Positions 12,356-38,471 of a stretch of DNA of 64,000 nt are shown here, piece by piece. The position numbers and the translations under genes are program-made. The first letter of the stretch is position 1, and each line of letters begins with the position of its first letter. The DNA lies in assembly GCA_947501605.1 (NCBI GenBank), contig CANMWZ010000018.1:12780-76779 (forward strand), given 5' to 3'. Below the pieces are notes generated by a model, which was not told the DNA's origin, searched no databases, and worked only from the letters and a program-made list of their open reading frames with translations. The stretch is from Planctomycetota bacterium (lineage in GTDB: Bacteria; Planctomycetota; UBA1135; UBA2386).

Positions 12356-12374
12356 CAACCAACCGGACAACTGC

Positions 12375-16223: not shown

Positions 16224-16301
16224 TCCGTGGAAGGCGCCTCGTCGCCCTGCCATGCGGTGGTGCTGCTTCCTCTTCTCCACACAGACTTCGCGATTCCTCC
16301 A

Positions 16302-17411: not shown

Positions 17412-17486
17412 GCCCAAAGCGGAGAGTTGGCAACGCCTGCGTCCAACGGACGTAGGCGCACAATCGCCATACTGCGGGCCGTAGAC

Positions 17487-17640: not shown

Positions 17641-17720
17641 TTCTGGCGACTGCGGCCGCGCTAGAACGCCCAGTCAGCGGCCCGATCCCCTATCCTGCGT
17701 CGCTACCCAGACGATCCAGA

Positions 17721-18818
17721 ATGCGCCACTTCGCCACCACATTCCTCAGTGCGGCTCTCGCCCTTTCGACCGCCGCTTCGGCTCAGCAACTGCTGCGCGA
17801 CGACTTCGCCTACGCCGGCCCGCTGACCAGCAACGGCTGGTTTGCACACAGCTCGGGCGGCCAGCGTACCATCGTGTCGTTCGGCGACTACGCGATCTTG
17901 AGCCAGGGCACGGGCGCCGGCGAGGACCTCAGCCGCGGGTTCCCGCAGCTTGCGGCGACGGACTCGGTCTACGCCGCGTTTCGACTCAACGTGCCGTCAG
18001 GCAACGCGGTCAATCCGGCATCCGCCGGGCTCTACTTCATCCACTTCAAGGACGGTACCACGGGCTTCCGTGCGCGCACGGGTGTGCTCGCGCCGGCGTC
18101 AGGTGGTGCGTTTCGGTTGGCGATTCATGCCGACAGTGCCAATCTCGGCCTCGGCGCTGCGTGGCCATCGGATCTTGCGTTCGACACCGACTACCTGGTC
18201 GTCATCGGCTTCGATGGCGCGCTCAATCGAGCGACGCTTTGGGTCGATCCGATCACTGCAGCCTCGCCTTCGATCGGACACACCGGGACGCTGCCGACCC
18301 CGTTCGTGACCGCCATCGCGCTGCGGCAGAGCAGTGAATACACCGGCTCGCTCCGCATCGACAACCTGATCGTCGGGCGCACCTTTGTGGATGTCGCCGG
18401 CGCCGGCCGTAGCTACGTGACGTTCGGCGCGGGCTGCTCCGGCTCGGTCGGGGTTCCGTCCAACACCGCGAGCCCGCTGCCTCGCCTTGGTCGCACGACG
18501 ACGATCACCATCGGCAACGTGACGGTGCCCGCCATCGCGCTGCTGCTGGTCGGCACCAGCAACACGTTCTCGCCGTCGTTCGGTCCGCTGCCGATCGACC
18601 TCACGGCGTTTGGTGCGCCGGGCTGCTCAGGCCGCGTCAGTGATGACGTAACGCAGTTCTTCGCTCTTGGCTTTGCCGGCGTGCCCTTTGACGTGGCGAT
18701 TCCCAATGACACCTACTTCATGGGGCTGCAGCTCTACACGCAGGCACTGGTGTTCGAGAACGTGAACCCGTTGGGGCTCGTGCTCTCGGACGCTGCGACG
18801 TTCGTCATCGGCGGCTGA
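17721..18818 (+). CDS. Secreted protein A2 (paralog of A1) with the shared C-terminal domain
   Basis: The track ORF 17427..18818 was trimmed to ATG 17721 (MRHFATTFLSAALALSTAASAQQ). It is colinear with A1. The tail is ...FGAGCSGSVGV...ALLLVGTSN...GPLPIDLTAFGAPGCSGRVS...IPNDTYFMGLQLYTQALVFENVNPLGLVLSDAATFVIGG. Confidence 0.85.
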   Translation: MRHFATTFLSAALALSTAASAQQLLRDDFAYAGPLTSNGWFAHSSGGQRTIVSFGDYAILSQGTGAGEDLSRGFPQLAATDSVYAAFRLNVPSGNAVNPASAGLYFIHFKDGTTGFRARTGVLAPASGGAFRLAIHADSANLGLGAAWPSDLAFDTDYLVVIGFDGALNRATLWVDPITAASPSIGHTGTLPTPFVTAIALRQSSEYTGSLRIDNLIVGRTFVDVAGAGRSYVTFGAGCSGSVGVPSNTASPLPRLGRTTTITIGNVTVPAIALLLVGTSNTFSPSFGPLPIDLTAFGAPGCSGRVSDDVTQFFALGFAGVPFDVAIPNDTYFMGLQLYTQALVFENVNPLGLVLSDAATFVIGG

Positions 18819-23634: not shown

Positions 23635-23669
23635 ACGCCGGTGATGCCGACCTGCGGCACCACCGGCGT
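23635..23669. terminator. Hairpin between convergent metH and NIDO-like paralog 1
   Basis: ACGCCGGTG (23635-23643) and CACCGGCGT (23661-23669) are exact reverse complements with a 17-nt loop. Confidence 0.5.
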
Positions 23670-23699: not shown

Positions 23700-25445
23700 T
23701 CAGATCCCGATCGTCCAACGAACGCCGTTGGAGACGCGGTAGCCAAACGCATTGGCCGTGAGGTCGTCGCTGATCGCTTGCGACATCAGTTGCACGCCGA
23801 CGAAGGCGGGCGTGTTGGGGATCGCGATCAGGTAGGTCGTGGTTGGCGCGCCGAGCGTCAGGTTGAAGTACGAGAGCAGCTCCGGCAGCGCGATGTAGGC
23901 CGTGCAGCCAGTGAGGCCGAAGCCATCGAGCGGGAAGCCGCCGGGGAGTTCGTTGCTGATCAACAAGATGCTGAAGACACCGTTGGGCAGGCTCGCGATG
24001 TTGTTGGTATCCAGCGTGTAGTTGCTGCCGATGGTCGGAACCGAGCCGGTTGGGACCGACAGGGTCAGCGGGAACACCTGGGTGCCCGGTACGGTGAGAC
24101 CATTGACGGTTGACAGGTCGGCGGCGCCGGAGTTCTGCACGTTGCCGCCGCGCGAGTATCCCGCCAGGAAGAAGCCGGTGTTCAGCGACACGTTCTGCCA
24201 GCGGATCGTGAACTGACCCGTCGGGCTGAGCGCGATCTGGACGTTGATGGGGGTCGCCGCGCCGTACTCCGGCACGTTGCGCCAGCTGATAACGAATTCG
24301 CCAGTGCCGGCGTCGAGCGCGTGCTCAACCGTGCCGCCAGAGGTCGGATCGAGGTCTTCCCACCAAGCTGCAATGCGAGCCGGTCCGCTGACGAGCACAG
24401 CAGGGTCTCCCGTGCAGCACCCGTCACCCGGATCCGTACCGCCGATGGTCAAGAAGCCGTTCGACGACACATAGATCGAGGTCTCGTTGGCGCCGTTGAA
24501 CGGGAACGCGAACGGCAAGGGGACCAAGTGCGAACTGTCATCGAGTGCCAGCAGTGGGGTTCCAGCGCCAGCGAACCACACCGGCGAAAGGCCGGGCAGC
24601 GCGATGTAGTCGTTGCCCGACGGCAAGAAGCTGAGGTTGAGGCCGCTGAGGTCGGGGGCGTTGTTGGCGCTGAACTGCTCATAGAGCGTGGGCGAAGCCG
24701 CAGCCGGGCAGCCAGCGCCGACTACGGTCGAGGTGGCGACGTTCGACGTGCACGTGACGTCGGTGACGACGTAGCCAGGGTTGGTCGGCGTGAACAGCCA
24801 CTTCGAGTTGGCGTAGGGCAGGAGCTGGCCGGGAGCACGCGTGATCACTTGGGCAAATGCGTTGGTCGCGATGTTCAGCGGGCGCGTGGCGAAGTTGACG
24901 GTCGGTGTCGCCACACCAGGACTCGCGCCGATGATCGCGGTGTTGGCCTGGAACGTCGACGTCGTGCCCAACGTGCCGTAGGCCACCGTGAAGGTGTTGT
25001 TGGCGAAGAGCGAGATCTGCATCGTGCCTGGCAACGTCGTGCCGTAGGTGTAGACGCGGATCCACGAAACGCGCGCGACGCCCGGCGTCGAGTTGTCGAA
25101 GTAGACCTGGCCGCTGCCCGCAATCGTGGGGTTGAAGTCGTTCCAGTAGGGGCAGATGCGCGCGCCGCCGGTCGCCATCTCAGCGAGCGTTGGCGAGTAG
25201 TCGCCGCCGTTCAGCGTCGACACGTTGGTGGAGCCGAGCACGAGGTAGCCGTTGGCGCACACCGAGATGCTGCTGTGGACAACACCGTTGTAGGTGAACG
25301 AGAACCCGAGGGGCAGCGGTGCCGTGACCTGGTCGTCACCGAGTGCGAGGCTGGGCCCGAAGTTGGTGTCGAAGCACGGACTCTGGGCCAACAGAGATGC
25401 AGCAAAGCTGGCTGCGAGAGCGGACGAGAGAAGGCTGCGGAGCAT
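23700..25445 (-). CDS. Secreted two-module NIDO-like protein with the shared C-terminal domain, paralog 1 of 5
   Basis: The track ORF 23700..25535 was trimmed to ATG 25445 (AGGAG upstream; MLRSLLSSALAASFAASLLAQSPCFD). Module 1: LGDDQVTAPLPLGFSFTYNGVVHSSISVCANGYLVLG...ARICPYWNDFNP. Module 2: DDSSHLVPLPFAFPFNGANETSIYVSSNGFLTIGGTDPGDGCC...RIAAWWEDLDP. Tail: ...ILLISNELPGGFPLDGFGLTGCTAYIALPE...IPNTPAFVGVQLMSQAISDDLTANAFGYRVSNGVRWTIGI. Confidence 0.85.
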   Translation of the reverse strand: MLRSLLSSALAASFAASLLAQSPCFDTNFGPSLALGDDQVTAPLPLGFSFTYNGVVHSSISVCANGYLVLGSTNVSTLNGGDYSPTLAEMATGGARICPYWNDFNPTIAGSGQVYFDNSTPGVARVSWIRVYTYGTTLPGTMQISLFANNTFTVAYGTLGTTSTFQANTAIIGASPGVATPTVNFATRPLNIATNAFAQVITRAPGQLLPYANSKWLFTPTNPGYVVTDVTCTSNVATSTVVGAGCPAAASPTLYEQFSANNAPDLSGLNLSFLPSGNDYIALPGLSPVWFAGAGTPLLALDDSSHLVPLPFAFPFNGANETSIYVSSNGFLTIGGTDPGDGCCTGDPAVLVSGPARIAAWWEDLDPTSGGTVEHALDAGTGEFVISWRNVPEYGAATPINVQIALSPTGQFTIRWQNVSLNTGFFLAGYSRGGNVQNSGAADLSTVNGLTVPGTQVFPLTLSVPTGSVPTIGSNYTLDTNNIASLPNGVFSILLISNELPGGFPLDGFGLTGCTAYIALPELLSYFNLTLGAPTTTYLIAIPNTPAFVGVQLMSQAISDDLTANAFGYRVSNGVRWTIGI

Positions 25446-25580
25446 GGGACTCCTGAGAGGGGTGTATGGCCAGTGGGGGACAATGGGAGCTGGCCGGGGT
25501 GGATTGCGACGAACGCTGTCCCCTTGGGGTTCCATCTTGCCATACCCGCGATCCCGTGCCTGTGGGGTTGCAGCACAAAT

Positions 25581-25621
25581 GACGACGCCCGGCCGACCGC
25601 GAGGGTCGTCCGGGCGTCGTC
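25581..25621 (-). terminator. Strong hairpin 19 nt downstream of paralog 2
   Basis: The 12-nt arms GACGACGCCCGG and CCGGGCGTCGTC are exact reverse complements, with further inner pairing CGACC/GGTCG. On the minus strand it is followed by ATTTGTG. Confidence 0.6.
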
Positions 25622-25639
25622 GTTCGGGCGCGAGCTAGA

Positions 25640-27400
25640 TCACAGACCGAGGATCCAGCGGACGCCGTTCGACACGCGGTAGCCGAAGGCATTTGCGGTC
25701 AGGTCATCGCTGATCGCCTGCGACATGAGCGTCACGCCGGCGAAGGCGGGGACGTTTGGGATCGGGATCGAGAACGTCGTGGTTGGCGCGCCAAGCGTCA
25801 GGTTGAAGTACGACAGCAGCTCTGGCAGCGCGATGTAGGCCGTGCAGCCAGTGAGGCCGAAGCCATCGAGCGGGAAGCCGCCGGGGAACTCGGTGCTGAT
25901 CAACAGGATGCAGAAGATGCCGTTCGGCAGGCTCTGGATGTTGGTCGCATCGAGCGTCATGGTCTGGCCGAGCTGCGGCAGGCCCGTCGGGGTCAGTTCG
26001 AGCGGAACCGAGATCAGGCCGCTGACCAGCTGGCCGCTGACCGCCGAAATGTCGGTGACACCCGGATCCCCCGTGTTGCTGCCGGCGGAGTAGCCGGAGA
26101 TCCACGTGTGACCTTGGTCGCTCACCGACTGCCAACGGATGGTGAACAGGCCGCTCGGGTTCAGCGCGATCTGGAAGGTCTCTAGCGGGCCTGCAAAGAA
26201 CTCGGGGACCTGATTCCAGGTGATGACGTACTCTCCAGTCGCGACGTCGAAATCGGCGAAGACGCCGCCGCCGGGGCCGGCGCCCGGAGGATAGATGTCC
26301 GCCCAGAAGCCCGAAATGCGCGGTGGCCCGGAGAGCATCGTCAAGACGTCGCCTGAGCAGCAGCCGCTGAACGGATCCGTAGCACCCAGCGTGAGGAAGC
26401 CGTTCGACGAGACGTAGATCTGGGTCTCGACCCCGCCGTTGTATGGGAACGGGAACGGCAACGTGATCTGGATCGTCTCGTCGTCGTTCATCAGGAGGTT
26501 GTTGGTGAACCCGGCGTACCACGTCGGGGCCACGTTCGGCAGGGCTAGGTAGTCGATAGCCCCCGAGGGCACGAAGCTCAGGTTGAGGCCGCTCAGGTCC
26601 GGCTGGTTGCCGAAGGTGTCGAAGATCTCGTAGAGCGACGGGCCGCTGCGACCAGGGCAGCCGCTACCGACGACCTCCGTCGAAGCGGGGCCGGGGAACG
26701 AGTTCGGCGTGCAGGTGAGGTCCGAGACTACGTAGCCTGGGGACGTCGGCGACCACAGCATCTTGAAGCCGAAGGGGATCGGCAGGCCGGGCGTTGTGCC
26801 GACGAAATCGCTGAACGAGTTCGAGGCGGTGACGACGGGCCGGGTCGCCAGCGAGATGGGATTCGAGACCGCGCCGAAGCCCGGGCTCGCGCCGATCAGG
26901 TAGTCCGTGCTGAACGCACCGATCTCGAGGGTCGGGCCGTAGGCGATGGTGACGCTGTTGCTGGCGTCGAGTGTGAGCTGGAAGCTGTTCGGCGTCGTGG
27001 TTGCGAATGCGAACACGCCAGCCCAAGAGATTCGGGCGACACCGGGCGTCGAGTTGTCGAAGTAGACGTGGCCGCTGCCGGTGGCACCTGGATTGAGGTC
27101 GGTCCAAAAGGCGCAGATGCGTGGATCACCGGCCAGCAGCTCCGCTTCGGTCGGGGTGTAATCGCCGCCGAACTGAGGGTTGACGCTGCCGAGCCAGATG
27201 TACCCATTCGAGCACACCTGAATGTCCGTGTAGGTGACGCCGTTGTAGGTGAAGTTGAAGCCGAGCGGCAACGGTGCCGACGTGTCGTCGTCGAAGAGAT
27301 TCAGGTCGGTGCCGATCGTGAGATCGAAGCACGGGCCCTGCGCAGGGAGCGTCGCGAAGAGAGTCGTCGCGATCGCGGCAGTCAGAATGCTGCGAAGCAT
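25640..27400 (-). CDS. Secreted two-module NIDO-like protein with the shared C-terminal domain, paralog 2 of 5
   Basis: Trimmed to ATG 27400 (MLRSILTAAIATTLFATLPAQGPCFD). Same architecture as paralog 1: DDDTSAPLPLGFNFTYNGVTYTDIQVCSNGYIWLG; ITLPFPFPYNGGVETQIYVSSNGFLTLGATDPFSGCC; tail ...RVSNGVRWILGL. Confidence 0.85.
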   Translation of the reverse strand: MLRSILTAAIATTLFATLPAQGPCFDLTIGTDLNLFDDDTSAPLPLGFNFTYNGVTYTDIQVCSNGYIWLGSVNPQFGGDYTPTEAELLAGDPRICAFWTDLNPGATGSGHVYFDNSTPGVARISWAGVFAFATTTPNSFQLTLDASNSVTIAYGPTLEIGAFSTDYLIGASPGFGAVSNPISLATRPVVTASNSFSDFVGTTPGLPIPFGFKMLWSPTSPGYVVSDLTCTPNSFPGPASTEVVGSGCPGRSGPSLYEIFDTFGNQPDLSGLNLSFVPSGAIDYLALPNVAPTWYAGFTNNLLMNDDETIQITLPFPFPYNGGVETQIYVSSNGFLTLGATDPFSGCCSGDVLTMLSGPPRISGFWADIYPPGAGPGGGVFADFDVATGEYVITWNQVPEFFAGPLETFQIALNPSGLFTIRWQSVSDQGHTWISGYSAGSNTGDPGVTDISAVSGQLVSGLISVPLELTPTGLPQLGQTMTLDATNIQSLPNGIFCILLISTEFPGGFPLDGFGLTGCTAYIALPELLSYFNLTLGAPTTTFSIPIPNVPAFAGVTLMSQAISDDLTANAFGYRVSNGVRWILGL

Positions 27401-27526
27401 GGGTTCCTTGAAAGATGGGGGGCGTTCACCTCTGCGACGTCGGGAGCCGTGCGCAGGTGCAGTCGATCCTAGAGATAATGGCACACTTAGCGATGAGGCC
27501 ACCGGCGGCAGTGTGTCGCCAAAATG

Positions 27527-27568
27527 CAAAACGCCCGGGGCACCGGCGAGCGGGCCACGGGCGTTTTG
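27527..27568 (-). terminator. Rho-independent-type terminator downstream of paralog 3
   Basis: The arms CAAAACGCCCG (27527-27537) and CGGGCGTTTTG (27558-27568) are exact reverse complements. On the minus strand the stem is followed by CATTTTGG (U-run). Confidence 0.65.
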
Positions 27569-27616
27569 CGGACGGGCGCGCGAGCCGCGTCCGTCACCGT
27601 CCTCAGAGCGCTTGGC

Positions 27617-29383
27617 TCAGAGGCCGAAGTTCCAGCGGAGACCGTTCGACACGCGGTAGCCGAAGGCGTTCGCGGTGAGGTCGTCGCTGACGGCCTGCGA
27701 CATCAGGCTGACGCCGTAGAAGGCGTTGTCGTTCGGGATGCTGATCGGCCACGACGTGGTCGCTGCGCCCAGCGTCAAGTTGAAGAACGACGCGATCTCT
27801 GGCAGCGCGACGTAGGCCGTGCAACCTGTGAGGCCGAAGCCGTCGAGCGGGAAGCCGCCCGGGACTTCGGTGCTGATCAGCAGGATGCAGAACACGCCGT
27901 TCGGCAGGGTCTGGACGCCGGTCGCATTGACCGTGAACGTGCCGCCGACTTGCGGGCGCGAGTTCAGGGCCGCCGCGATCGACAGCGGCGTGACCGTCGC
28001 CGGGATGTTGTTCGAGTAGTAGCCCAACGGCTGCGTCAGCACCAAGTAGTCGAGGCCGGTGTTGAACATCACGACTTCGAGGCCAGTCATGTCGATCGGC
28101 GACGCGTTGTTCGCGAACGTCTGGTACATCGTCGTGGCGTTGACGCCGGCGACGCCCGAGATGTCCGTGACACCCGGATCCGCAGCGCCGCCACCGACCG
28201 AGAAGCCGGTGAGCGCCACGCGCGTGGCGCTGACGATGCCGACGTTCAGGAAGCGCATCGTGACGGTGCCCGTCGGCGACAGCGCGATCTGGAAGTTGTT
28301 CGCCGGCTGCGGGGTGGCGCCGAACTCACCAGCGGAGACCCAGTTGATCACGTACTCGCCCGTGATCGCATCGACGTAGGCGTTGACTTCGCCGTTGCCG
28401 GTCGCCGACAGGTTGAGGTCCTGCCAGAAGGCCGCGAGGCGCGTCGGGCCCGTAAGCAGCGTGGCGGGGCTACCGGCGCAGCAGCCAGAGCCTGGGTTGG
28501 TCGTGCCGAGGGTCAGGAAGCCGTTCGACGAGACGACGATGTTGTTGAACGTGCCCGTCGGTGCCGGGAACGCGAACGGCAGGGTGAGTGCATGCGTGGT
28601 GTCGTCACCGGCGTTGAGGGCCGGGCTCACAAGGGCTGGGCAACCGACGCCGACGACTGCCGAGCTGGCCGGGGGCGGCAGCTGGTTCGGCGTGCAGGTG
28701 ACATCCGAGATCACGAAGCCGGGGTTGGTCGGGGTCCACAGCATCTTGAAGTTGCCGTAGGGGATCGGGACGCCGTTCACTGCCGGAATCGCTTCCGAGA
28801 ACGTGTTCGACGTCGAGATGATCGGGCGCGTGGCGAACGAGACCGGGTTGGCCACCGAGGCAGCACCGGGGCTGGCGCCGATGAGGACGGTCGTGTTCAG
28901 CGTGCCGGGAACGGCCGCGGCGCCGTAGGTGACCGTGACGCTGTTGCTGGCATCGAAGCTGACCTGGAAGTTGATGCCAGTCGTCGTGCCGAAGGCGAAC
29001 ACACCGGCCCAAGTGACCGTGGCGACGCCCGGCGTCGAGTTGTCGAACCAGACTTTGCCGCTGCCGACCGCGCCCGGGTTGAAGTCGCTCCAGAGCGGGC
29101 AGATGCGCGGCGCACCGGCGAGCAGTTCGGCCTCGGTCGGCGAGAAGTCACCGCCGGCGATGCCGGTCGTGCCGAGCCAGATGTAGCCGTTCGAGCACAC
29201 GCTTACCTGCGTGTAGGCGACACCGTTGTAGGTGAACGTGAAGCCGAGGTTCTGGGCCGCCGACGTGGAGTCGTCGATCAGCGCGAGATCGGTGCCGAGA
29301 GGGAGGCTGAAGCACGGGGCCTGGGCGCCGAGTGAGGCGGCGAGGGCCGTTGCAACGGCGGTCGTGAACAAACTACGAATCAT
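27617..29383 (-). CDS. Secreted two-module NIDO-like protein with the shared C-terminal domain, paralog 3 of 5
   Basis: Trimmed to ATG 29383 (MIRSLFTTAVATALAASLGAQAPCFS). It has IDDSTSAAQNLGFTFTYNGVAYTQVSVCSNGYIWLG; LTLPFAFPAPTGTFNNIVVSSNGFLTLGTTNPGSGCC; tail ...RVSNGLRWNFGL. The middle region is the most divergent of the five. Confidence 0.85.
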   Translation of the reverse strand: MIRSLFTTAVATALAASLGAQAPCFSLPLGTDLALIDDSTSAAQNLGFTFTYNGVAYTQVSVCSNGYIWLGTTGIAGGDFSPTEAELLAGAPRICPLWSDFNPGAVGSGKVWFDNSTPGVATVTWAGVFAFGTTTGINFQVSFDASNSVTVTYGAAAVPGTLNTTVLIGASPGAASVANPVSFATRPIISTSNTFSEAIPAVNGVPIPYGNFKMLWTPTNPGFVISDVTCTPNQLPPPASSAVVGVGCPALVSPALNAGDDTTHALTLPFAFPAPTGTFNNIVVSSNGFLTLGTTNPGSGCCAGSPATLLTGPTRLAAFWQDLNLSATGNGEVNAYVDAITGEYVINWVSAGEFGATPQPANNFQIALSPTGTVTMRFLNVGIVSATRVALTGFSVGGGAADPGVTDISGVAGVNATTMYQTFANNASPIDMTGLEVVMFNTGLDYLVLTQPLGYYSNNIPATVTPLSIAAALNSRPQVGGTFTVNATGVQTLPNGVFCILLISTEVPGGFPLDGFGLTGCTAYVALPEIASFFNLTLGAATTSWPISIPNDNAFYGVSLMSQAVSDDLTANAFGYRVSNGLRWNFGL

Positions 29384-29527
29384 GGTTTCCTCGATGTACA
29401 GGGGGCTGCATTGGCCGGAAACGGTGCATAGGGCTCCGGTTCTGGGGGCTTTGCTTGGATGAAGCCTACGCGCGAGAGGTTCCCTCACAATGGCCCGATG
29501 TAACTGCGGAGTCTCCCCGAAATGCGG

Positions 29528-29564
29528 AACGCCGGTAGTGCTGGCGACCAGCACTACCGGCGTT
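29528..29564 (-). terminator. Perfect 17-bp hairpin downstream of paralog 4
   Basis: AACGCCGGTAGTGCTGG-CGA-CCAGCACTACCGGCGTT. The arms are exact reverse complements. It lies 40 nt after the paralog 4 stop and upstream of the real paralog 3 start. Confidence 0.65.
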
Positions 29565-29603
29565 CAGGACGCAGGGCGCAGCAGGCGCGCCCGATCTGGC
29601 CGA

Positions 29604-31358
29604 TCAGAGGCCGCCGATGTTCCAGCGGAGGCCGTTCGACACGCGGTAGCCAAAGGCGTTGGCCGTCAGGTCGTCACTGATCGCCTGGGTCATGAGCGAC
29701 AGGCCCAGGAACGCATTGTCGTTCGGGATGCCGATCGTGAAGGTCGTGCTCGGGGCGCCGATCGTCAGGTTGAAGAACGACGCGATCTCTGGCAGCGCGA
29801 CGTAGGCCGTGCAGCCCGTGAGACCAAAGCCGTCGAGCGGGACGCCGCCCGGGATCTCGGTGCTGATCAGGAGGATGCAGAACACGCCGTTCGGCAGGCT
29901 CTGGATACCGCTGGCGGTGGAGCTGAAGGACAGACCGATGGTCGGGCGGGTGCCCGAGGCAAAGCCGAGCGACAGCGGAATGGTGCGGCAACCGAGGTTG
30001 ACGCCATTGAGTGCCGACACGTCACTGCTGCCGGGGTTCGTCGCACCGCCACCGCTGCTGTAGCCAGTGAGTTGGGTGCCGCCGGCGAATGCCAAGGCGA
30101 CCCAGCGGATCGTGAACTGGCCCGACGGGCTCAGGGCGATCTGGAAGGTCTCGGTGTTGGTTTGGCCGAACTCGCGGACCGCGTTCCATGTGATGCAGAA
30201 CTCACCCGTCACGGTGTCGAGGTCGGCAAAGACCGCACCGCCAGCGGCGGGGTTCAGGTCTTCCCACATGCCAGCGATGCGCGGCGAGCCGGCGAGCAGC
30301 GCCACGGGGTCACCCGCGCAGCAGCCCGAGCCCGGATCCGTGCCATCCAGCGTGATGAAGCCGTTCGACGAGACCCAGACGTTACTGACCGTGCCGCCGC
30401 CGTGCGGGAAGGCGAAGGGCAGCGCGACATTGCTCGTGCTGTCGTCGGTGAGCAACAGGTTGTTGGCGGCGCCAGTGAAGAACGTCGGCGAGATGCCGGG
30501 GACCACGAAGTAGCCGCCGCAGCCGTTCGGGACGAACGACTTGTCGAGGCCGGCGAGGTCGATCGAGGCCGGGACCGTGAACGTCTCGTAGACCGAGACG
30601 CTGGTCGCGGTCGGGCAACCGGTGCCGACGACCGCTGCGCTACCAGGAAGCGGCAGCGGGATCGCCGTGCACGCGACGTCGGTGATCACGAAGCCCGGGG
30701 ACGTCGGGGTCCACTGCATCTTCGTGTTGGCGTACGGCGCCACGGTGCCCGTGGGATTGAGGATGACCTGATAGGTCGTGTCCGAAGCGCTGATGATCGG
30801 ACGCGGCGTCAGCACGATGTTGTTGGCAACCGCGCCGCCACCCGTCGTGGCACCGATGATCGTCGTGCCGCCCTGGGCCGTCGACGACGGGCCGAGCTGA
30901 CCGATCGTGACCGTCACGCTATTGGTGAGGTCCAACGTGATCTGCATGTCGGTCTTGATCGTCGTGCCGAACGTGTAGACGCCGGCCCACGTGACGCGGG
31001 CGAAACCCGGGGTCGAGTTGTCGAAGTAGACGTGGCCGCTACCGACGATAGTGGGGTTGAAGTCCATCCACGCGCCGCAGATGCGCGGGCCCTGCGCCAG
31101 CAGTTCGGCTTCGGTCGGGTTCCAATCGGCAACGGCATTGGCCGCGCCAAGCCACACGTAGCCGTTCGAGCAGACGCGGACTTGCGTGTAGGCAACGCCG
31201 CCGTAGGTGAACGTGAAGCCGAGATTCAGAGCTGAAGACGTGGTGTCGTCACCCAGGTTGAGATCGGTGCCGGCCGGCAAGTCGAAGCACGGGGCCTGGG
31301 ACGTGAGACCAGCAGCAAAGGTTGCTGCAACAAACGTAGTGAGCAAGGTACGGAGCAT
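29604..31358 (-). CDS. Secreted two-module NIDO-like protein with the shared C-terminal domain, paralog 4 of 5
   Basis: Trimmed to ATG 31358 (MLRTLLTTFVAATFAAGLTSQAPCFD). It has LGDDTTSSALNLGFTFTYGGVAYTQVRVCSNGYVWLG; VALPFAFPHGGGTVSNVWVSSNGFITLDGTDPGSGCC; tail ...RVSNGLRWNIGGL. Confidence 0.85.
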   Translation of the reverse strand: MLRTLLTTFVAATFAAGLTSQAPCFDLPAGTDLNLGDDTTSSALNLGFTFTYGGVAYTQVRVCSNGYVWLGAANAVADWNPTEAELLAQGPRICGAWMDFNPTIVGSGHVYFDNSTPGFARVTWAGVYTFGTTIKTDMQITLDLTNSVTVTIGQLGPSSTAQGGTTIIGATTGGGAVANNIVLTPRPIISASDTTYQVILNPTGTVAPYANTKMQWTPTSPGFVITDVACTAIPLPLPGSAAVVGTGCPTATSVSVYETFTVPASIDLAGLDKSFVPNGCGGYFVVPGISPTFFTGAANNLLLTDDSTSNVALPFAFPHGGGTVSNVWVSSNGFITLDGTDPGSGCCAGDPVALLAGSPRIAGMWEDLNPAAGGAVFADLDTVTGEFCITWNAVREFGQTNTETFQIALSPSGQFTIRWVALAFAGGTQLTGYSSGGGATNPGSSDVSALNGVNLGCRTIPLSLGFASGTRPTIGLSFSSTASGIQSLPNGVFCILLISTEIPGGVPLDGFGLTGCTAYVALPEIASFFNLTIGAPSTTFTIGIPNDNAFLGLSLMTQAISDDLTANAFGYRVSNGLRWNIGGL

Positions 31359-31578
31359 GGGTTCCTCGATGTACGGGGGGTAGGCACGCGAGGCGCGCAC
31401 TCCGCCATGAGCCGGAGTGCGGGACTGCGAGCGCCGGAGGATACCAGCGGATCGCTGTCTCGCTAGTGGGGCCTCCCCATCCCCAGCCGAGGCAGAGGTT
31501 GCCCGCGAGGGACGCGGACTTGCGGCGCTACGGACCTGCTGCGAACTTCGTAGGGCTCAGATGCGCCGTAGCGAACCG

Positions 31579-33333
31579 TCAGAGGCCGAGGTTCCAGCGC
31601 AGGCCGTTGGAGACGCGGAAACCAAAAGCGTTGGCGCCGAGATCGTCACTCACCGCCTGTGACACCAGGGACACGCCGGCGAAGGCTGGGTTGGACGGGA
31701 TCGCAATCGAGTAGGCAGTCGTTGGCGCGCCAAGCGTCAGGTTGAAGTAGGACAGCAACTCCGGGAGGGCGACGTAGGCGGTGCAGCCGGTGAGGCCGAG
31801 CCCGTCGAGCGGGACACCGACCGGAACCTCGAGGCTGATCAAGAGGATGCAGAAGACGCCGTCTGGCAGCGGCTGGATGCCGCCAGCGTTGACGGTGAAG
31901 GTCGTGCCGATCGAGGGGCGCGAGTTGGCGGCAGCCGCGATCGTCAGCGGCGCCCGGACCGTGGCACTGATGGTGCGGCCATTGACGGCAGTCAGGTCCG
32001 TCGAGCCGGTGTCGGGAGTGCCGGTGCCGCGCGAGTAGCCAGCGAGGTAGCTGCCGCTCGTGCGCGCCACGTTTTGCCAGCGCGTTGTCATCATGCCGCT
32101 TGGGCTGAACGCGATTTGGAAGGTGTTGGGGCTGCTCGTGCCGTACTCGACCACCGCGTTCCAGGTGACCACAAAGTCACCGGACGTGGCGTCGAAGTCG
32201 GCGTAGACCGCGCCGCCGGCGGCGGGGTTCAGGTCTTCCCACCAGCCGCACAAGCGTGGCGAGCCCGCGAGCATCGTGGCGACGTTCGGCGTGCAGCAGC
32301 CACTGCCGGGACTGGCGCCGCCAATCGTCAAGAAGCCGTTCGATGACACGTAAATCGTCGACTCGCTGGAGCCGTTGAACGGCAGCGGGAAGGGCAGCGT
32401 GATCGGCACGGCCGCGTCGTCACCAAGGAACAGGTTGTTGCTGAAGCCCGCGAACCACGTCGGTGAGATGTTGGGGATCGCGATGTAGTCCGTGGCGCCG
32501 GCCGGCAGCAAGCTGAGGTTGAAGCCATTCAGGTCCGCGGCGTTCGTTGGCGTGAACAGCTCGTAGAGCGAAGGGCCGCTGCGGCCAGGGCAGCCGTCAC
32601 CGAGGATCTGCGAGCTCGCCGGCACCGGCAACGAGTTCTGTGTGCAACTGACATCAGTGATGACGAAGCCCGGGCTGGTCGGCGTCCACAACAGCTTGAC
32701 GTTGCCGTAGGGGATCGGAACGCCGCTCACCACCGCGAGGGCTTCATGGAACGTGTCCGAGGTCGAGATCATCGGTCGCGTGGCCAGCGAGACCGGGTTC
32801 GAGAGCGCGGCGGCACCAGGACTGGCGCCGATGACGATCGTCGTGTTCAGCGTGCCGGGGACGGCCGGGGCGCCATACGCGATCTGGATACTGTTGGTCT
32901 GATCGAACGTGACCTGGAAGCTCGCTGGCGTTGTGGAGCCGAACGGATAGACCCCAGCCCACGTCACGCGGGCGCTGCCTGGCGTGGCGTTGTCGAAGTA
33001 AATGTGGCCGCTGCCGGGCGCACTGGGATCAAAGTCGCTCCACATCGGGCAGATGCGCGGCGCGCCGGCGAGCAGCTCGGCGGCAGTCGGCGAGAAGTCA
33101 CCGCCGGCGATGCCGGTCGTGCCGAGCCAGATGTAGCCGTTCGAGCAGACACTGATCTGCGTGTAGACGACGCCGTTGTAGGTGAACGGGAAGCCGAGAC
33201 TCAGAGCGGGCGACGTCATGTCGTCGGTCAGAGCGAGGTCGGTGCCGAGCGCGAGATCGAAGCACGGGCTCTGGGCTGCGAGCGCGGCGGCGACGCCCAT
33301 GGCGAGCACAGAAGCGGCGATTTGACGGATCAT
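31579..33333 (-). CDS. Secreted two-module NIDO-like protein with the shared C-terminal domain, paralog 5 of 5
   Basis: This is the C-terminal 584 codons of the 1198-aa track ORF 31579..35175, starting at ATG 33333 (MIRQIAASVLAMGVAAALAAQSPCFD). It has LTDDMTSPALSLGFPFTYNGVVYTQISVCSNGYIWLG; ITLPFPLPFNGSSESTIYVSSNGFLTIGGASPGSGCC; tail ...RVSNGLRWNLGL. Confidence 0.85.
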   Translation of the reverse strand: MIRQIAASVLAMGVAAALAAQSPCFDLALGTDLALTDDMTSPALSLGFPFTYNGVVYTQISVCSNGYIWLGTTGIAGGDFSPTAAELLAGAPRICPMWSDFDPSAPGSGHIYFDNATPGSARVTWAGVYPFGSTTPASFQVTFDQTNSIQIAYGAPAVPGTLNTTIVIGASPGAAALSNPVSLATRPMISTSDTFHEALAVVSGVPIPYGNVKLLWTPTSPGFVITDVSCTQNSLPVPASSQILGDGCPGRSGPSLYELFTPTNAADLNGFNLSLLPAGATDYIAIPNISPTWFAGFSNNLFLGDDAAVPITLPFPLPFNGSSESTIYVSSNGFLTIGGASPGSGCCTPNVATMLAGSPRLCGWWEDLNPAAGGAVYADFDATSGDFVVTWNAVVEYGTSSPNTFQIAFSPSGMMTTRWQNVARTSGSYLAGYSRGTGTPDTGSTDLTAVNGRTISATVRAPLTIAAAANSRPSIGTTFTVNAGGIQPLPDGVFCILLISLEVPVGVPLDGLGLTGCTAYVALPELLSYFNLTLGAPTTAYSIAIPSNPAFAGVSLVSQAVSDDLGANAFGFRVSNGLRWNLGL

Positions 33334-33473: not shown

Positions 33474-35090
33474 TCAGTAGCGGACGCTGGCGCGCGCGTG
33501 CGGCCCAACAGCGCCCGTGACGTCGGCTGTTCCCCATGGGCGGGCGACGATCAGGTCGATGCCGAGGATCACCGAAACCAGGATCAGGGTCCTTGCGCGC
33601 GACCAGTTGGGAATCGTGGGAACGAGCGGTGCGAGCGCCGCAGACCAGAGCAAGGCAAGTGCTGGAATGCACAGCGCGCCAAGTCGCGCATAGCCGAAGA
33701 ACACGGTTGCGACCGCGAGTTTCGTCAGCAGCCAGAGCGCGAGAGCGGCCGCCGCTGGTTCGCGACGCAGGCGCCATGCGCCCGAAACCGCAAGCAGCAG
33801 CAACGAAGTGCGCCAGGCGACTGCGAACCAGTTGTCGGCGACGACGAGGTCCACAGGCTCGCGCGTGCCGCTGCGGCCGAGCGGCAGATTGGCGAGACCC
33901 AGGCCCGCGGTGGCGCCGCGCCACGCCTGCGCGATTTTGCGCGTGACGAGATCCAATGCGCCACCGGGGTGCCCGACGACCCAGTCGAGCCCGAGCCGGT
34001 AGCCGTCGTTCACGGCCCGCAAATGTGGTGGGTACGAGAGTTCGAGTTCTCGCGGCAGCACGTTCAGCAATCCCGCTGGATAGCGATCGAGTCCACCAGT
34101 GAGCGGCGGTCGGCGATCGAGTGGTCCGCGCGTGAAGCCGCCGTCGCTCTCGCTGCAGTTGGCGAGGAAGAAGTTGAGCGGGCCGTACAGCGCGATCAGC
34201 GGCGTGTGCAACGGCGCGGGCATGTAGCCGTAGGCCTCGGTGACGATGCGCAGGTCGCCTGGCGTCACGCGCGCGCCAGCACGGACCCGGACGGTGTCGC
34301 CGACGAACGCCGCGGTCGAGAGTTGCGCAAATGGCGGTAGCGCGCGAACTGCTGCAAGGGCCTCGTCCGCCCAAGGCAACGAACCGGGCAACGGCAGCCT
34401 CGGCGCGCTGCTGCCGATCTTGCCGCTGTTGAAGTCGGCGATCGTGCGATGCACATGCAGTTGCCAGGGCAGCAAGACGAGCACGAAGGTCGCGATCGCC
34501 ACGCCGAGGTCGCGAGCGCGCGAGTTCTGCTTTTGCCACAGCAGCCATGCGATGCTGGCGACGAAGCAGAGCAGATGGTCGGCGCGGAACAGGCATGCGA
34601 CTGCGTGCAGCATGGCCCAGCGCACGGCCGCCGCTGGCGCCGCCCCGGTGCGCAACCGGTCGAAGTCGGCGAGCGTCAGGACGAACAAGAGCAGATACGG
34701 GATCTCGCCGTGCACGCCGTTGCCGAGGACGATCAAGGCGTTGCTGAGGGCGCAGATCCAACCCGCGGCGAGTGCAATCGGTGCCGCGAAGGTGCGTCGC
34801 AAAGCGAGGTAGAGCAGTGGCGCGACCAGCGCTCCGAGGGCGACCATCAAAGCGCGTGGCAACAGCGCATCCACGCCGCCGTCCCACGTTGCGCGCGCGA
34901 GCCAGCCCATCGCCGGTGGGCGAAACGGGAGCGCTGCTTCGAGGCCCGCGGTGCCGTTCGCGAACTGTTGCCAGTATGGCGCGTCCCCCTGGTACGAGGC
35001 TTCGAACGGCGCGCTCCGCTGCGGTGACGCAAGCCAGTGCACTGCACGCACAGTCAGGCTGGCGGAGAACAACGCAACGGCGTGACGCAT
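33474..35090 (-). CDS. Polytopic membrane glycosyltransferase, GT-C fold (PMT_2 / ArnT / GT39-like)
   Basis: 538 aa with about 10 or more hydrophobic segments around a large central soluble loop. The N-terminal third resembles dolichyl-phosphate-mannose / undecaprenyl-phosphate-sugar transferase families (RPPAMGWL...LPRALMVALGALVAPLLYLALRR). It lies in a different frame from the overlapping part of ORF 31579..35175 and looks far more protein-like. The family assignment is from memory only. Confidence 0.6.
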   Translation of the reverse strand: MRHAVALFSASLTVRAVHWLASPQRSAPFEASYQGDAPYWQQFANGTAGLEAALPFRPPAMGWLARATWDGGVDALLPRALMVALGALVAPLLYLALRRTFAAPIALAAGWICALSNALIVLGNGVHGEIPYLLLFVLTLADFDRLRTGAAPAAAVRWAMLHAVACLFRADHLLCFVASIAWLLWQKQNSRARDLGVAIATFVLVLLPWQLHVHRTIADFNSGKIGSSAPRLPLPGSLPWADEALAAVRALPPFAQLSTAAFVGDTVRVRAGARVTPGDLRIVTEAYGYMPAPLHTPLIALYGPLNFFLANCSESDGGFTRGPLDRRPPLTGGLDRYPAGLLNVLPRELELSYPPHLRAVNDGYRLGLDWVVGHPGGALDLVTRKIAQAWRGATAGLGLANLPLGRSGTREPVDLVVADNWFAVAWRTSLLLLAVSGAWRLRREPAAAALALWLLTKLAVATVFFGYARLGALCIPALALLWSAALAPLVPTIPNWSRARTLILVSVILGIDLIVARPWGTADVTGAVGPHARASVRY

Positions 35091-38190: not shown

Positions 38191-38471
38191 TCTTTGGAAC
38201 CTGGTGGTGGGAGAGACCCGGCGATGCCGGGCTTGACTGCTCCAGTCCAAAGGGCAGGGTGTGGACCAGATCCGGGCAGGGAGAGGATTAGTCTGGTGGG
38301 TTTTCCTAGGTTGTCAAGTTGGGGCAGTTTCTTGGAGTTGCGCGCAGCAGTGGCGAGCCGCTTCGATCGCTGGCATCGGGAGCAAGGTCATGCCCGACAA
38401 TCGGCGCGCTGTGCGGTTGCGGCGCACGGGATAGGCTTCTGCGCCCCACGCCCCGTTGCGCCTCCATCCTG

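What the first reader, a model, noticed from the sequence alone, without database searches (positions are those of the whole stretch)
23700..31870. Mosaic conservation in the array: the 3' ~300 nt are near-identical between paralogs while the rest has diverged, and each copy has its own terminator
At nucleotide level the last ~290-300 nt of each paralog (the C-terminal domain) are far more similar than the upstream coding sequence.
- Paralogs 1 and 2 share an uninterrupted identical 64-nt run (23884-23947 vs 24824-equivalent 25824-25887).
- They differ at only about 10 positions in the surrounding ~133 nt that I compared by hand.
- A few hundred nt further 5' the two genes are hard to align at DNA level.
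- Paralogs 2 and 3 are similarly close over the same block by eye, and the protein tails of paralogs 4 and 5 are similarly conserved.
This pattern fits gene conversion or concerted evolution, or very strong purifying selection down to synonymous sites, restricted to the tail. Each intergenic gap (~90-220 nt) also carries a strong private hairpin (25581-25621, 27527-27568, 29528-29564, 23635-23669). The copies therefore look like separate transcription units rather than one operon.
Basis: seen in the sequence. Interest (0 to 1): 0.55.

Follow-up and report, generated by a model that had tools for sequence, protein, structure and literature searches.

The report
Five tandem genes, one conserved tail
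Five neighbouring copies of a secreted-protein gene in an uncultured planctomycete keep their last ~97 codons alike mainly because that end domain is strongly constrained as a protein, with a few short gene-conversion patches on top; this is ordinary for a tandem gene family, although the end domain itself has no model in Pfam or NCBIfam.

Summary
Five minus-strand paralogs (581-588 aa) share a 96-97-codon C-terminal tail. The tail is 75-85% identical in DNA and the rest of the genes 61-70%, so it is not near-identical. The 64-nt identical run between P1 and P2, and four strong hairpins after P1-P4, are confirmed.

Most of the mosaic comes from selection on the protein:
- dN is 3-5 times lower in the tail than in the body.
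- Copies from different genomes show the same mosaic (tail up to 88%, body 68%).
- The 3' half of the tail is saturated at synonymous sites.

Gene conversion is also real, but narrow.
- It shows only in the 5' ~150 nt of the tail among P1-P4. Comparison with a sister genome carrying the same array gives clear support for P1/P2 and weaker support for P3/P4.
- It is not confined to the tail. The first domain of P5 is P3-like here and P4-like in the sister genome.

The hairpins are among the strongest structures in the window and are conserved in relatives, so each copy probably has its own terminator. There are no transcript data to confirm this.

The tail is a confidently predicted beta-sandwich with no Pfam, NCBIfam or PDB match. 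It sits at the extreme C-terminus of more than 3,000 protein clusters whose other domains are diverse.

The parts
23700..25445 (-). Paralog P1 (581 aa). It is the last gene of the array and converges on metH. It has a signal peptide, two weak NIDO-like regions and the C-terminal tail.
   Evidence: Clear orthologs exist in other genomes: A.P1, L001.3, L003.2, L007.1 and L008.1.
25640..27400 (-). Paralog P2 (586 aa).
   Evidence: It is 83% identical to ortholog P0002 in sister genome GCA_040080205.1.
27617..29383 (-). Paralog P3 (588 aa). It carries a relocated ~40-aa module.
   Evidence: The AlphaFold2 model has mean pLDDT 90 and is all-beta.
29604..31358 (-). Paralog P4 (584 aa).
   Evidence: The two fragments of its sister-genome ortholog are 80-82% identical to it.
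31579..33333 (-). Paralog P5 (584 aa). It is the first gene of the array. The true start is the ATG at 33333; the open frame runs further upstream.
   Evidence: The sister-genome ortholog is 74% identical.
23703..23990 (-). Conserved C-terminal tail domain of P1 (96 codons). The equivalent tails are P2 25643-25930, P3 27620-27907, P4 29607-29897 and P5 31582-31869.
   Evidence: The tail-only AlphaFold2 model has pLDDT 92 and 8 beta strands.
23832..23951 (-). Probable conversion tract in the P1 tail, copied from P2 (P2 equivalent about 25772-25891). It contains the 64-nt identical core 23884-23947 = 25824-25887.
   Evidence: The identical run has permutation p = 0.001. Seven of seven informative residues at tail positions 19-53 are P2-type, and the flanks are P1-type. 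Site patterns group by genome in the comparison with the sister genome.
27758..27907 (-). 5' half of the P3 tail. It shows reduced synonymous divergence from P4 (29748-29897) and from P2, and includes the 45-nt identical run 27779-27823 = 29769-29813.
   Evidence: p = 0.034; dS 0.25; 11 against 2 sites, p = 0.022.
32562..33229 (-). First-domain region of P5 that is P3-like (P3 equivalent 28612-29279). It includes the 62-nt identical run 33086-33147 = 29136-29197. The sister genome's P5 is P4-like over the same region.
   Evidence: repeat families D4 and D8; p = 3.5e-7 and 0.0095.
23635..23669 (-). Terminator-like hairpin 30 nt after the P1 stop, followed by CTGCATTTC. It lies between the convergent P1 and metH genes.
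   Evidence: (-38.1 kcal/mol, z = -6.8).
25585..25617 (-). Terminator-like hairpin 22 nt after the P2 stop, followed by CATTTGTG.
   Evidence: -43.6 kcal/mol, z = -5.3. It is the strongest 46-nt fold in the window. It is identical over 41 nt in the sister genome.
27531..27564 (-). Terminator-like hairpin 52 nt after the P3 stop, followed by TTTTGCATTTTGG.
   Evidence: -39.4 kcal/mol, z = -3.5. It is the only one of the four found by the terminator scan.
29529..29563 (-). Terminator-like hairpin 40 nt after the P4 stop, with an 18-bp perfect stem, followed by CCGCATTTC.
   Evidence: -43.9 kcal/mol, z = -7.0; I6. It is conserved in the sister genome.
25508..25533 (-). Conserved non-coding block upstream of P1 with the motif GGAAC-N17-CGTC, which resembles an ECF-sigma promoter. 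A similar block, GGAAC-N17-CATC, lies upstream of P3 at 29458-29483.
   Evidence: The blocks are conserved between the window and the sister genome. The motif is not enriched in the window: 7 matches found, 5.1 expected. This is a lead only.
33474..35090 (-). PMT_2-like membrane glycosyltransferase gene immediately upstream of the array. Its linkage to the array is conserved.
   Evidence: weak PF13231 match. Synteny holds in L001-L004, L013 and L026.
35200..38250 (-). M36/M4-like metallopeptidase gene upstream of the glycosyltransferase. Its linkage is conserved, and its C-terminus loosely resembles the tail.
   Evidence: The tail profiles do not detect it.
16005..18818 (+). Two further tandem genes (ORFs 16005-17411 and 17427-18818) from a different family that end in a divergent copy of the same tail domain.
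   Evidence: E about 1e-6 to 1e-7; E about 1e-31 with the broader profile.

Best explanation
This is a tandem array of five genes for Sec-secreted proteins in an uncultured Planctomycetota genome. Each protein has two weak NIDO-like regions and ends in a ~97-residue beta-sandwich domain.

The tail looks more alike in DNA than the rest for two layered reasons.
1. The tail domain is under much stronger protein-level purifying selection than the rest of the protein. With 87-90% GC at third codon positions, conserved amino acids alone give about 75-80% DNA identity. This part is shown.
2. Short-tract gene conversion between neighbouring copies has repeatedly homogenised the 5' ~120-150 nt of the tail among P1-P4. 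This is shown for P1/P2 and probable for P3/P4 and for P2 with P3 and P4.

The constrained tail supplies the runs of identity that homologous recombination needs, so selection and conversion reinforce each other. This step is inferred.

Conversion is a property of the whole array, not of the tail. A ~540-nt tract has replaced the first domain of P5 in at least one of two sister lineages. This is shown.

P1 to P4 are each followed by a strong GC-rich hairpin with a short T-stretch. These are conserved in position across related genomes and most likely act as intrinsic terminators or 3'-end stabilisers, giving largely separate transcripts. This is inferred. P5 and P4 may be co-transcribed.

The tail's job is most likely to sort or anchor the secreted protein. 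This is inferred from its strict C-terminal position on many different kinds of secreted protein.
For: **Selection on the protein**
- Tail dN is 0.08-0.18 and body dN is 0.30-0.47.
- Between orthologs in the window and the sister genome, dN/dS is 0.09-0.24 in the tail and 0.16-0.46 in the body.
- The same tail/body mosaic appears between different genomes. L002.1 against P3 gives tail 0.85 protein and 0.88 DNA identity, and body 0.59 and 0.68.
- The chance that two copies of the same amino acid use the same codon is 0.56 from codon bias alone. The observed value is 0.58 in the 3' half of the tail and 0.64 in the body.

**Conversion in the tail**
- In the 5' half of the tail, P1/P2 synonymous codon identity is 39/46 against 141/240 in the body (p = 4e-4). 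P2/P4 gives 0.78 (p = 0.012), P2/P3 0.79 (p = 0.025) and P3/P4 0.82 (p = 0.058). Pairs involving P5 sit at the codon-bias baseline.
- dS in the 5' half is 0.20 for P1/P2 and 0.25 for P3/P4, against 0.74-0.92 in the body. That is no larger than the 0.23-0.58 seen there between orthologs of the window and the sister genome.
- In the four-sequence comparison (window P1 and P2, sister-genome P1 and P2), the body has 278 sites grouping by ortholog, 12 by genome and 11 in the third pattern. The first half of the tail has 0-2 by-ortholog and 6-7 by-genome sites, depending on the alignment and window used.
- In the 5' half of the tail, window P1 is closer to window P2 than to sister-genome P2 (14 against 3 sites, p = 0.013). 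Window P3 is closer to window P4 than to sister-genome P4 (11 against 2, p = 0.022).
- The P1 tail is a mosaic. Positions 19-53 are P2-type and the flanks are P1-type. The sister genome's P1 carries a different P2-type tract at positions 7-34.
- The 20-codon identical run has permutation p = 0.001.

**Conversion in the body**
- Alignment columns 40-220 of window P5 are 0.79-0.92 identical to P3. The same columns of the sister genome's P5 are 0.77-0.88 identical to P4. The two P5 orthologs are only 0.54-0.76 identical to each other there. The three-sequence test gives p = 3.5e-7.

**Not an assembly artefact**
- Each exact paralog sequence occurs on 1-16 independently assembled contigs, some up to 117 kb long.

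**Hairpins**
- Hairpins with a trailing (C)GTTTG follow almost every array gene in related genomes and are conserved in the sister genome.

**Tail as a modular C-terminal domain**
- 3,225 clusters match at E <= 1e-3, and 142 of 160 domain envelopes end within 5 residues of the C-terminus.
- The other domains of the tail-bearing proteins scanned (18 representatives; others had no Pfam hit) include PKD, M43 peptidase, sulfatase, Kelch, Rax2 propeller, LTD and FG-GAP.
- 62 of 79 full-length carriers have a signal-peptide-like N-terminus by a crude test.
Against: - Informative sites in a 50-codon segment are few. Most single tests have p = 0.01-0.06 without correction for about 10-48 comparisons. 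Only P1/P2 is supported by several independent tests.
- The tail of the sister genome's P3 was not recovered, so P3/P4 could not be tested with four sequences.
- The dS estimates (Nei-Gojobori method) ignore codon bias and are near saturation in the body.
- Ortholog dS in the tail is about half the body value for P2 and P4, so some constraint on synonymous sites cannot be excluded.
- The hairpins have short, interrupted U-tracts, and three of the four fail a standard terminator pattern.
- No promoter was identified: the sigma-70 scan found none, and the ECF-like motif is not enriched.
- The sorting or anchoring role of the tail rests on its architecture alone.
Confidence: 0.72

Rival explanations
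1. Concerted evolution alone. The whole ~290-nt tail is kept similar by frequent gene conversion among all five copies, and protein-level constraint plays little part.
For: Conversion signatures exist in the tail. For P1, the ortholog pair is no more conserved in the tail than in the body: 0.83 against 0.84 DNA identity.
Against: - The 3' half of the tail is saturated at synonymous sites (0.58 against a 0.56 baseline; dS 0.5-1.3) yet still conserved as protein.
- The P5 tail shows no synonymous excess with any copy.
- Tails group by ortholog for P1/P4 (24 by ortholog, 4 by genome, 1 other), P2/P4 (20/1/3) and P4/P5 (21/3/3).
- Copies from different genomes show the same mosaic.
Confidence: 0.08
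2. Selection alone. There is no gene conversion, and the extra DNA similarity in the 5' half of the tail reflects selection on synonymous sites (codon usage, mRNA structure or an embedded nucleotide-level element) plus chance.
For: - Ortholog dS in the tail is lower than in the body for P2 (0.30 against 0.46) and P4 (0.27 against 0.45).
- GC at third codon positions is slightly higher in the tail (0.90-0.94 against 0.86-0.90).
- Most individual p-values are modest.
Against: - Synonymous constraint would preserve similarity between orthologs as well. Instead, window P1 and P2 are closer to each other (0.91-0.94) than to their own orthologs (0.85-0.91).
- In the first half of the tail the informative sites group almost entirely by genome rather than by ortholog: 6-7 by genome against 0-2 by ortholog.
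- The P2-type tract in P1 has P1-type flanks and differs in extent between the two sister genomes.
- P5 pairs show no excess.
- No Rfam family matches anywhere in the window.
Confidence: 0.12
3. Assembly artefact. The mosaic tracts were created when a metagenome assembler switched between paralogs inside shared identical runs.
For: - The window appears to come from a metagenome assembly.
- Two strain variants on short contigs (P0277, 2,968 nt; P0278, 7,084 nt) join a P1 body to a P5-type or P2-type 3' tail. Such joins are what chimeric assembly would produce.
Against: - The exact protein sequences of all five paralogs recur on 1-16 contigs each, from several sources and up to 117 kb long.
- The P1 tract is internal, with P1-type sequence on both sides, so it would need two switches within about 120 nt.
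- The sister genome shows its own, different tract.
Confidence: 0.03
4. The hairpins are not terminators. They are a repeated palindromic element (REP-like) or mRNA-processing and stabilising sites inside a single operon transcript running from P5 to P1.
For: - They share a common stem base (ACGCCSG...CSGGCGT) that occurs only at these four places in the window.
- The U-tracts are short.
- All five genes lie on one strand with no recognisable sigma-70 promoter between them.
- P5 lacks a strong hairpin.
Against: - Each hairpin sits 22-52 nt after a stop codon and is followed by a T-rich stretch.
- The same arrangement recurs after array genes in distant relatives, with different stem sequences.
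- A comparable hairpin follows the unrelated peptidase gene at 35113-35158.
- The gaps between genes contain conserved blocks downstream of the hairpins that could be promoters.
Confidence: 0.2

Closest known systems
Concerted evolution of duplicated bacterial genes by short-tract gene conversion (for example the tufA/tufB pair in Salmonella, and surface-protein gene families such as Neisseria opa or Treponema tpr). This comparison is from my own knowledge and was not tested here.
   Same: Patches of tens to hundreds of nt are copied between paralogs. Tracts are bounded by orthologous sequence. Exchange favours adjacent or highly similar segments.
   Different: Here conversion is sparse and the copies stay about 50% divergent in protein over most of their length. 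There is no evidence of a programmed variation mechanism, silent cassettes or phase variation.
C-terminal sorting domains of type IX secretion cargo (Por_Secre_tail, PF18962 and TIGR04183)
   Same: Both are ~80-100-residue all-beta domains at the extreme C-terminus of many signal-peptide-bearing proteins whose other domains are unrelated. Distant NIDO-containing homologs in other lineages end in PF18962 where these proteins carry the tail.
   Different: There is no sequence match to PF18962 or to any NCBIfam sorting-domain model. No solved type IX C-terminal domain appears among the 50 Foldseek hits listed, and the best hit has E = 0.2. The organism is a planctomycete, and the presence of type IX machinery was not examined.
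NIDO (nidogen-like) extracellular domain, PF06119
   Same: Two regions per protein (about residues 60-120 and 385-425) give weak PF06119 matches. Many homologs carry a precomputed PF06119 hit.
   Different: Only P5 reaches Pfam's cut-off (25.1 against 25 bits), and the matches cover a fraction of the model. The function of NIDO is itself unknown.
Rho-independent (intrinsic) terminators
   Same: A GC-rich stem-loop lies shortly after the stop codon and is followed by T residues. The one between convergent genes (P1 and metH) could work in both directions.
   Different: The T-stretch is only 3-4 T and is interrupted (GCATTTC, CATTTGTG). Three of the four fail a consensus scan.

Membership tests
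Gene conversion / concerted evolution between paralogs | Paralogs within a genome group together, against their orthologs in a sister genome, in the tract | tested here: met
   For P1/P2, the first half of the tail has 0-2 sites grouping by ortholog and 6-7 by genome, depending on the alignment and window used. The body has 278 and 12. DNA identity of window P1 to window P2 is 0.91-0.94, against 0.85-0.91 to their orthologs. The pattern is not seen for P1/P4, P2/P4 or P4/P5 tails.
Gene conversion / concerted evolution between paralogs | Reduced synonymous divergence inside the tract compared with flanking coding sequence | tested here: met
   This holds only for the 5' half of the tail among P1-P4. 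P1/P2 gives dS 0.20 against 0.92 and codon identity 0.85 against 0.59 (p = 4e-4). The 3' half and all P5 pairs sit at the saturation baseline.
   About 540 nt of the first domain of P5 is P3-like in the window and P4-like in the sister genome.
Intrinsic terminator | Stable GC-rich stem-loop just downstream of the stop codon | tested here: met
   Folding energies are -38 to -44 kcal/mol with z-scores of -3.5 to -7, and the hairpins lie 22-52 nt after the stops of P1-P4. They are in the top 0.1% of local folds in the window. P5 has none.
Intrinsic terminator | Run of U (at least 5 of 8) directly after the stem | tested here: not met
   Only the P3 hairpin passes (27544-27530). The others are followed by 3-4 T.
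Intrinsic terminator | Transcripts end at the site in vivo | not testable with these tools
   No RNA data are available. Conservation in position across relatives is only indirect support.
Type IX secretion C-terminal sorting domain | Sequence match to PF18962, TIGR04183 or TIGR04131 | tested here: not met
   Scans of 25 proteins (the five paralogs and their two upstream neighbours, the two other tail-bearing window proteins, and 16 representative carriers), each against Pfam-A, NCBIfam or both, found no model over the tail.
Type IX secretion C-terminal sorting domain | Extreme C-terminal position on many secreted proteins with unrelated other domains | tested here: met
   3,225 clusters match. 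142 of 160 domain envelopes end within 5 residues of the C-terminus. The other domains are diverse.
Type IX secretion C-terminal sorting domain | Fold matches solved C-terminal domain structures | tested here: not met
   Foldseek of the pLDDT-92 tail model against the PDB gives a best E of 0.2. The hits are generic Ig, FN3 and macroglobulin-type sandwiches.
Type IX secretion C-terminal sorting domain | Cognate secretion and sortase machinery (PorU, PorV, SprA and others) in the genome | not tested
   Only a 64-kb window and scattered contigs were available.
NIDO domain (PF06119) | Score at or above Pfam's gathering threshold (25 bits) | tested here: inconclusive
   P5 scores 25.1 bits, P2 18.0 and P4 16.2. 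P1 and P3 have no hit. Many homologs carry a precomputed PF06119 hit.

The most novel reading that the evidence does not exclude
The ~97-residue tail is a previously undescribed C-terminal sorting or cell-surface-anchoring domain of a Planctomycetota lineage. It would be functionally analogous to type IX or PEP-CTERM-type signals but unrelated to them in sequence and fold. It is carried by thousands of secreted proteins. The recurrent, lineage-specific homogenisation of its 5' half between neighbouring copies would then keep the copies matched to a shared recognition partner. An example is the FPLDGF...AYIALPE version in this genome against IPLDGL...A[YH]VALPE in the sister genome.
Probability: 0.3. 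Interest if true: 0.6.

Novelty: new member of a known kind. Interest (0 to 1): 0.33.

Why it matters
- **Evolutionary pattern.** This is a textbook case: a constrained domain within a tandem family supplies the sequence identity on which short-tract conversion acts. It mainly warns against reading gene conversion from DNA similarity in a genome with ~90% GC at third codon positions, where conserved protein sequence alone gives 75-80% DNA identity.
- **By-product.** More useful is the tail itself. It is a confidently folded C-terminal beta-sandwich with no Pfam, NCBIfam or PDB counterpart. It is present on more than 3,000 protein clusters with diverse extracellular domains. It is linked here to a conserved locus holding a metallopeptidase and a PMT-like glycosyltransferase. 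If it is a sorting or anchoring signal, it would open a way into protein export or surface display in an uncultured planctomycete lineage.

Tried and rejected
- **Sigma-70 promoter scan of 23-36 kb.** It found no sites, against 0.9 expected.
- **Standard terminator scan.** It found only one of the four hairpins and no enrichment (7 found, 6.1 expected). I therefore judged the hairpins by folding energy, by rank within the window and by conservation.
- **ECF-like GGAAC-N16-18-CRTC motif.** It is conserved upstream of P1 and P3 in both genomes but not enriched in the window (7 against 5.1). I kept it only as a lead.
- **Rfam at gathering threshold over the whole window.** No matches.
- **Foldseek of the full-length model and of the tail model against the PDB.** Nothing significant.
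- **PDB sequence search.** Nothing for the tail; only noise for the full length.
- **Literature search for a planctomycete C-terminal sorting domain.** Nothing relevant among 228 loose hits.
- **Whole-tail dS comparison.** It was ambiguous until I split the tail into halves and calibrated it against the codon-bias baseline.
- **M36-like peptidase C-terminus.** It aligns loosely with the tail by eye and in MAFFT, but neither tail profile detects it, so I do not count it as a member.
- **High synonymous identity between the P3 tail and the L002.1 tail (0.81).** I considered this as a sign of transfer between genomes and set it aside as within noise for about 75 codons.

Full report
**What is there**

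The region holds five tandem genes on the minus strand:
- P1 23700-25445
- P2 25640-27400
- P3 27617-29383
- P4 29604-31358
- P5 31579-33333

Each starts at an M[LI]R... signal-peptide-like N-terminus preceded by an AGGA-type ribosome-binding site. The proteins are 581-588 aa. They align end to end, apart from one relocated module in P3.

Pfam gives only weak NIDO (PF06119) matches in two regions per protein, and only P5 reaches the cut-off. NCBIfam gives nothing.

Upstream on the same strand lie a PMT_2-like membrane glycosyltransferase (33474-35090) and an M36/M4-like metallopeptidase (35200-38250). Downstream, metH (20088-23603) converges on P1.

**Checking the observation**

The 64-nt identical run is exact. 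P1 and P2 differ at 10 positions in the 133 nt at 23850-23982, and at 42 of the 291 tail positions.

Over all ten pairs, DNA identity is 0.75-0.85 in the tail and 0.61-0.70 in the body. An independent repeat finder gives 75-85% for five 300-nt copies (family D1). So the contrast is real, but "near-identical" is too strong.

The tail is not the only conserved block. P3 and P5 share a 62-nt identical run and 300 nt at 81% identity near their N-termini.

The four hairpins exist, with folding energies of -38 to -44 kcal/mol and z-scores of -3.5 to -7. They share the stem base ACGCCSG...CSGGCGT, which occurs nowhere else in the window: 4 matches found, 0.3 expected. Three of them are the first, second and fourth most stable 46-nt folds in the 64 kb. 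P5 has no comparable hairpin.

**Where the array comes from**

Homologs are all from uncultured Planctomycetota genomes assembled from metagenomes.

Tandem arrays of two to five copies recur in these genomes. They have the same neighbours: peptidase, glycosyltransferase, array, then metH. One genome (L003) has only a P5-like first copy and a P1-like last copy.

A sister genome, GCA_040080205.1, has the same five-gene array. I call it "A" and the window "W" below. I recovered its P1, P2 and P5 whole, P4 in two pieces, and only the N-terminal part of P3. Its orthologs are 74-86% identical to the window's proteins.

The exact sequences of all five window paralogs recur on 1-16 independently assembled contigs of up to 117 kb. 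Mis-assembly is therefore unlikely.

**Selection or conversion?**

I used three kinds of evidence.

*1. Between-genome controls.* Copies from different genomes cannot convert each other, yet they show the same mosaic. L002.1 against P3 has a tail that is 0.85 identical in protein and 0.88 in DNA, and a body at 0.59 and 0.68. Tail dN is 3-5 times lower than body dN among paralogs. Ortholog dN/dS is 0.09-0.24 in the tail and 0.16-0.46 in the body. Protein-level constraint is therefore the main cause.

*2. A codon-bias baseline.* GC at third codon positions is 0.86-0.98. Two independent codons for the same amino acid therefore match with probability 0.56. The observed match rates were:

| Region | Identical-codon fraction |
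|---|---|
| Expected from codon bias alone | 0.56 |
| 3' half of the tail | 0.58 |
| Body | 0.64 |
| 5' half of the tail, all pairs | 0.71 |

The 3' half is saturated and the body nearly so. Within the 5' half the excess is confined to P1-P4:

| Pair | Identical-codon fraction | p against body |
|---|---|---|
| P1/P2 | 0.85 | 4e-4 |
| P3/P4 | 0.82 | 0.058 |
| P2/P3 | 0.79 | 0.025 |
| P2/P4 | 0.78 | 0.012 |
| any pair with P5 | 0.54-0.67 | not significant |

In the 5' half, dS is 0.20 for P1/P2 and 0.25 for P3/P4. That is no larger than the divergence between W and A orthologs, although the bodies of these paralogs are saturated.

*3. Site patterns against the sister genome.* I compared W.P1, A.P1, W.P2 and A.P2. 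In the body, 278 sites group by ortholog, 12 by genome and 11 in the third pattern. In the first half of the tail, 0-2 sites group by ortholog and 6-7 by genome, depending on the alignment and window used. In the remainder of the tail, 8-10 group by ortholog and 2 by genome.

In sliding windows, W.P1 and W.P2 are 0.91-0.94 identical there. That is more than either is to its own ortholog.

I classified tail residues against four distant P1 orthologs. W.P1 is P2-type at all seven informative positions between 19 and 53, and P1-type on both flanks. A.P1 has a different P2-type tract, at positions 7-34. The two sister lineages therefore each copied P2 sequence into P1, independently, over overlapping stretches of roughly 100 nt.

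A three-sequence test gives a similar but weaker signal for P3/P4 (11 against 2 sites, p = 0.022). Tails of P1/P4, P2/P4 and P4/P5 behave as plain orthologs.

**Conversion is not confined to the tail**

Alignment columns 40-220 of W.P5, its first domain, are 0.79-0.92 identical to P3. The same columns of A.P5 are 0.77-0.88 identical to P4. The two P5 orthologs are only 0.54-0.76 identical to each other there, against 0.73-0.87 elsewhere.

W.P4 is significantly closer to A.P5 than to W.P5 in the body (192 against 104 sites, p = 3.5e-7).

At least one P5 has therefore had about 540 nt overwritten since, or around, the split of the two genomes.

**Likely mechanism**

Selection holds the tail similar enough to provide long identical runs. 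Homologous recombination between neighbouring copies then copies short patches, which further homogenises the most conserved stretch. This last step is inferred.

dS is not uniform, so the idea is not refuted. The dip is limited to about 150 nt and to P1-P4.

**Hairpins and transcription**

Each hairpin lies 22-52 nt after a stop codon and is followed by GCATTT, CATTTG or TTTTGCATTTT.

In related genomes, almost every array gene is likewise followed by a GC-rich hairpin and (C)GTTTG, with different stem sequences.

Between W and A, the P2 hairpin is identical over 41 nt and the P4 hairpin is nearly so, while the flanking spacer has diverged.

This supports a function as terminators or 3'-end stabilisers. 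However, the U-tracts are short and only one hairpin passes a consensus scan.

Conserved blocks downstream of the hairpins could be promoters. One is GGAAC-N17-CGTC at 25508-25533 and another is GGAAC-N17-CATC at 29458-29483. The motif is not enriched in the window.

P5 lacks a strong hairpin, so P5 and P4 may be co-transcribed. Nothing here can settle this without RNA data.

**What the tail is**

The full-length AlphaFold2 model is confident (pLDDT 90) and all-beta. The tail alone folds as an eight-strand beta domain (pLDDT 92). It has no significant structural or sequence relative in the PDB.

A profile of the tail finds 3,225 clusters at 50% identity (E <= 1e-3). The match lies at the extreme C-terminus in 142 of 160 domain envelopes.

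The carriers have diverse other domains: PKD, M43 peptidase, sulfatase, Kelch, Rax2 propeller, lamin-tail and FG-GAP. They mostly have signal-peptide-like N-termini by a crude test. No Pfam or NCBIfam model covers the tail.

Two further tandem genes in this window (ORFs 16005-17411 and 17427-18818) end in a divergent copy of the tail.

This architecture resembles that of C-terminal sorting or anchoring domains such as type IX secretion C-terminal domains. The sequence and fold tests for membership of that family fail. I therefore describe the tail as working like such a domain and do not file it as one.

**Verdict**

The finding is a real but ordinary tandem family. It has a constrained C-terminal domain plus sporadic short-tract conversion. 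The most interesting by-product is the unmodelled C-terminal domain.

Noticed in passing
window 16005-17411 and 17427-18818 (+): A second tandem pair of paralogs (62% identical over 344 aligned residues) from a different family has no Pfam or NCBIfam hit. Both end in a divergent copy of the same C-terminal tail (...GLQLYTQALVFENVNPLGLVLSDAATFVIGG). A homolog lies next to metH in L003 (12938-13846).
   Followed up: partly
window 27617-29383 (P3), about residues 410-450, against about residues 255-295 of the other paralogs: A ~40-residue module lies between the two NIDO-like regions in P1, P2, P4 and P5 (LYExF...DLSGLNLSF.P.G..DY.A.P). In P3 it is missing there, and a homologous stretch (MYQTFANNASPIDMTGLEVVMFNTGLDYLVL) sits after the second region, next to the tail (single-comparison BLASTP E = 9e-5). 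The N-terminal part of the sister genome's P3 also lacks the module at the first site. This may mean the module belongs structurally to the tail domain and the second NIDO-like region is an insertion within it.
   Followed up: partly
window 33474-38250; L001, L002, L003, L004, L013, L026: The gene order M36-like peptidase, PMT_2-like glycosyltransferase, NIDO/tail array, then convergent metH is conserved across related genomes. Array copy number varies from 2 (L003) to 5 (the window, sister genome GCA_040080205.1 and L004). The first copy is P5-like and the last is P1-like, so expansion seems to occur in the middle.
   Followed up: partly
L001 9842-11653 and 11906-13804: Two adjacent copies in this genome are identical over the whole aligned gene, and their downstream hairpins match as well. 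This looks like a very recent tandem duplication, or possibly an assembly duplication.
   Followed up: no
proteins P0277 and P0278 (strain variants of P1): Two variants more than 90% identical to P1 join a P1 body to a tail whose 3' half is P5-type (P0277, 2,968-nt contig) or partly P2-type (P0278, 7,084-nt contig). They are either real recombinants segregating in the population or assembler chimeras formed at the shared identical run.
   Followed up: partly
L026 10001-11755 (sister-genome P5): In the sister genome, the first domain of P5 (alignment columns about 60-220) is 77-88% identical to P4 and only 54-76% identical to the window's P5. This is a large conversion tract in the body of the gene.
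   Followed up: yes
window 25508-25533 and 29458-29483 (-): GGAAC-N17-CGTC and GGAAC-N17-CATC motifs lie in the gaps upstream of P1 and P3 and are conserved in the sister genome. They resemble ECF-sigma promoters. The pattern is not enriched in the window (7 found, 5.1 expected).
   Followed up: partly
window 35113-35158 and 61612-61657: Two other very stable hairpins (-34 to -37 kcal/mol in 46 nt) were seen. The first lies just after the stop of the M36-like peptidase gene. This fits GC-rich hairpins being this genome's usual gene-end signal.
   Followed up: no
window about 5633-13355 (+): A run of ORFs have translations that look like flagellar genes (FliF-, FliG-, FliI- and FliM-like), judged by eye. 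No family search was run on them.
   Followed up: no
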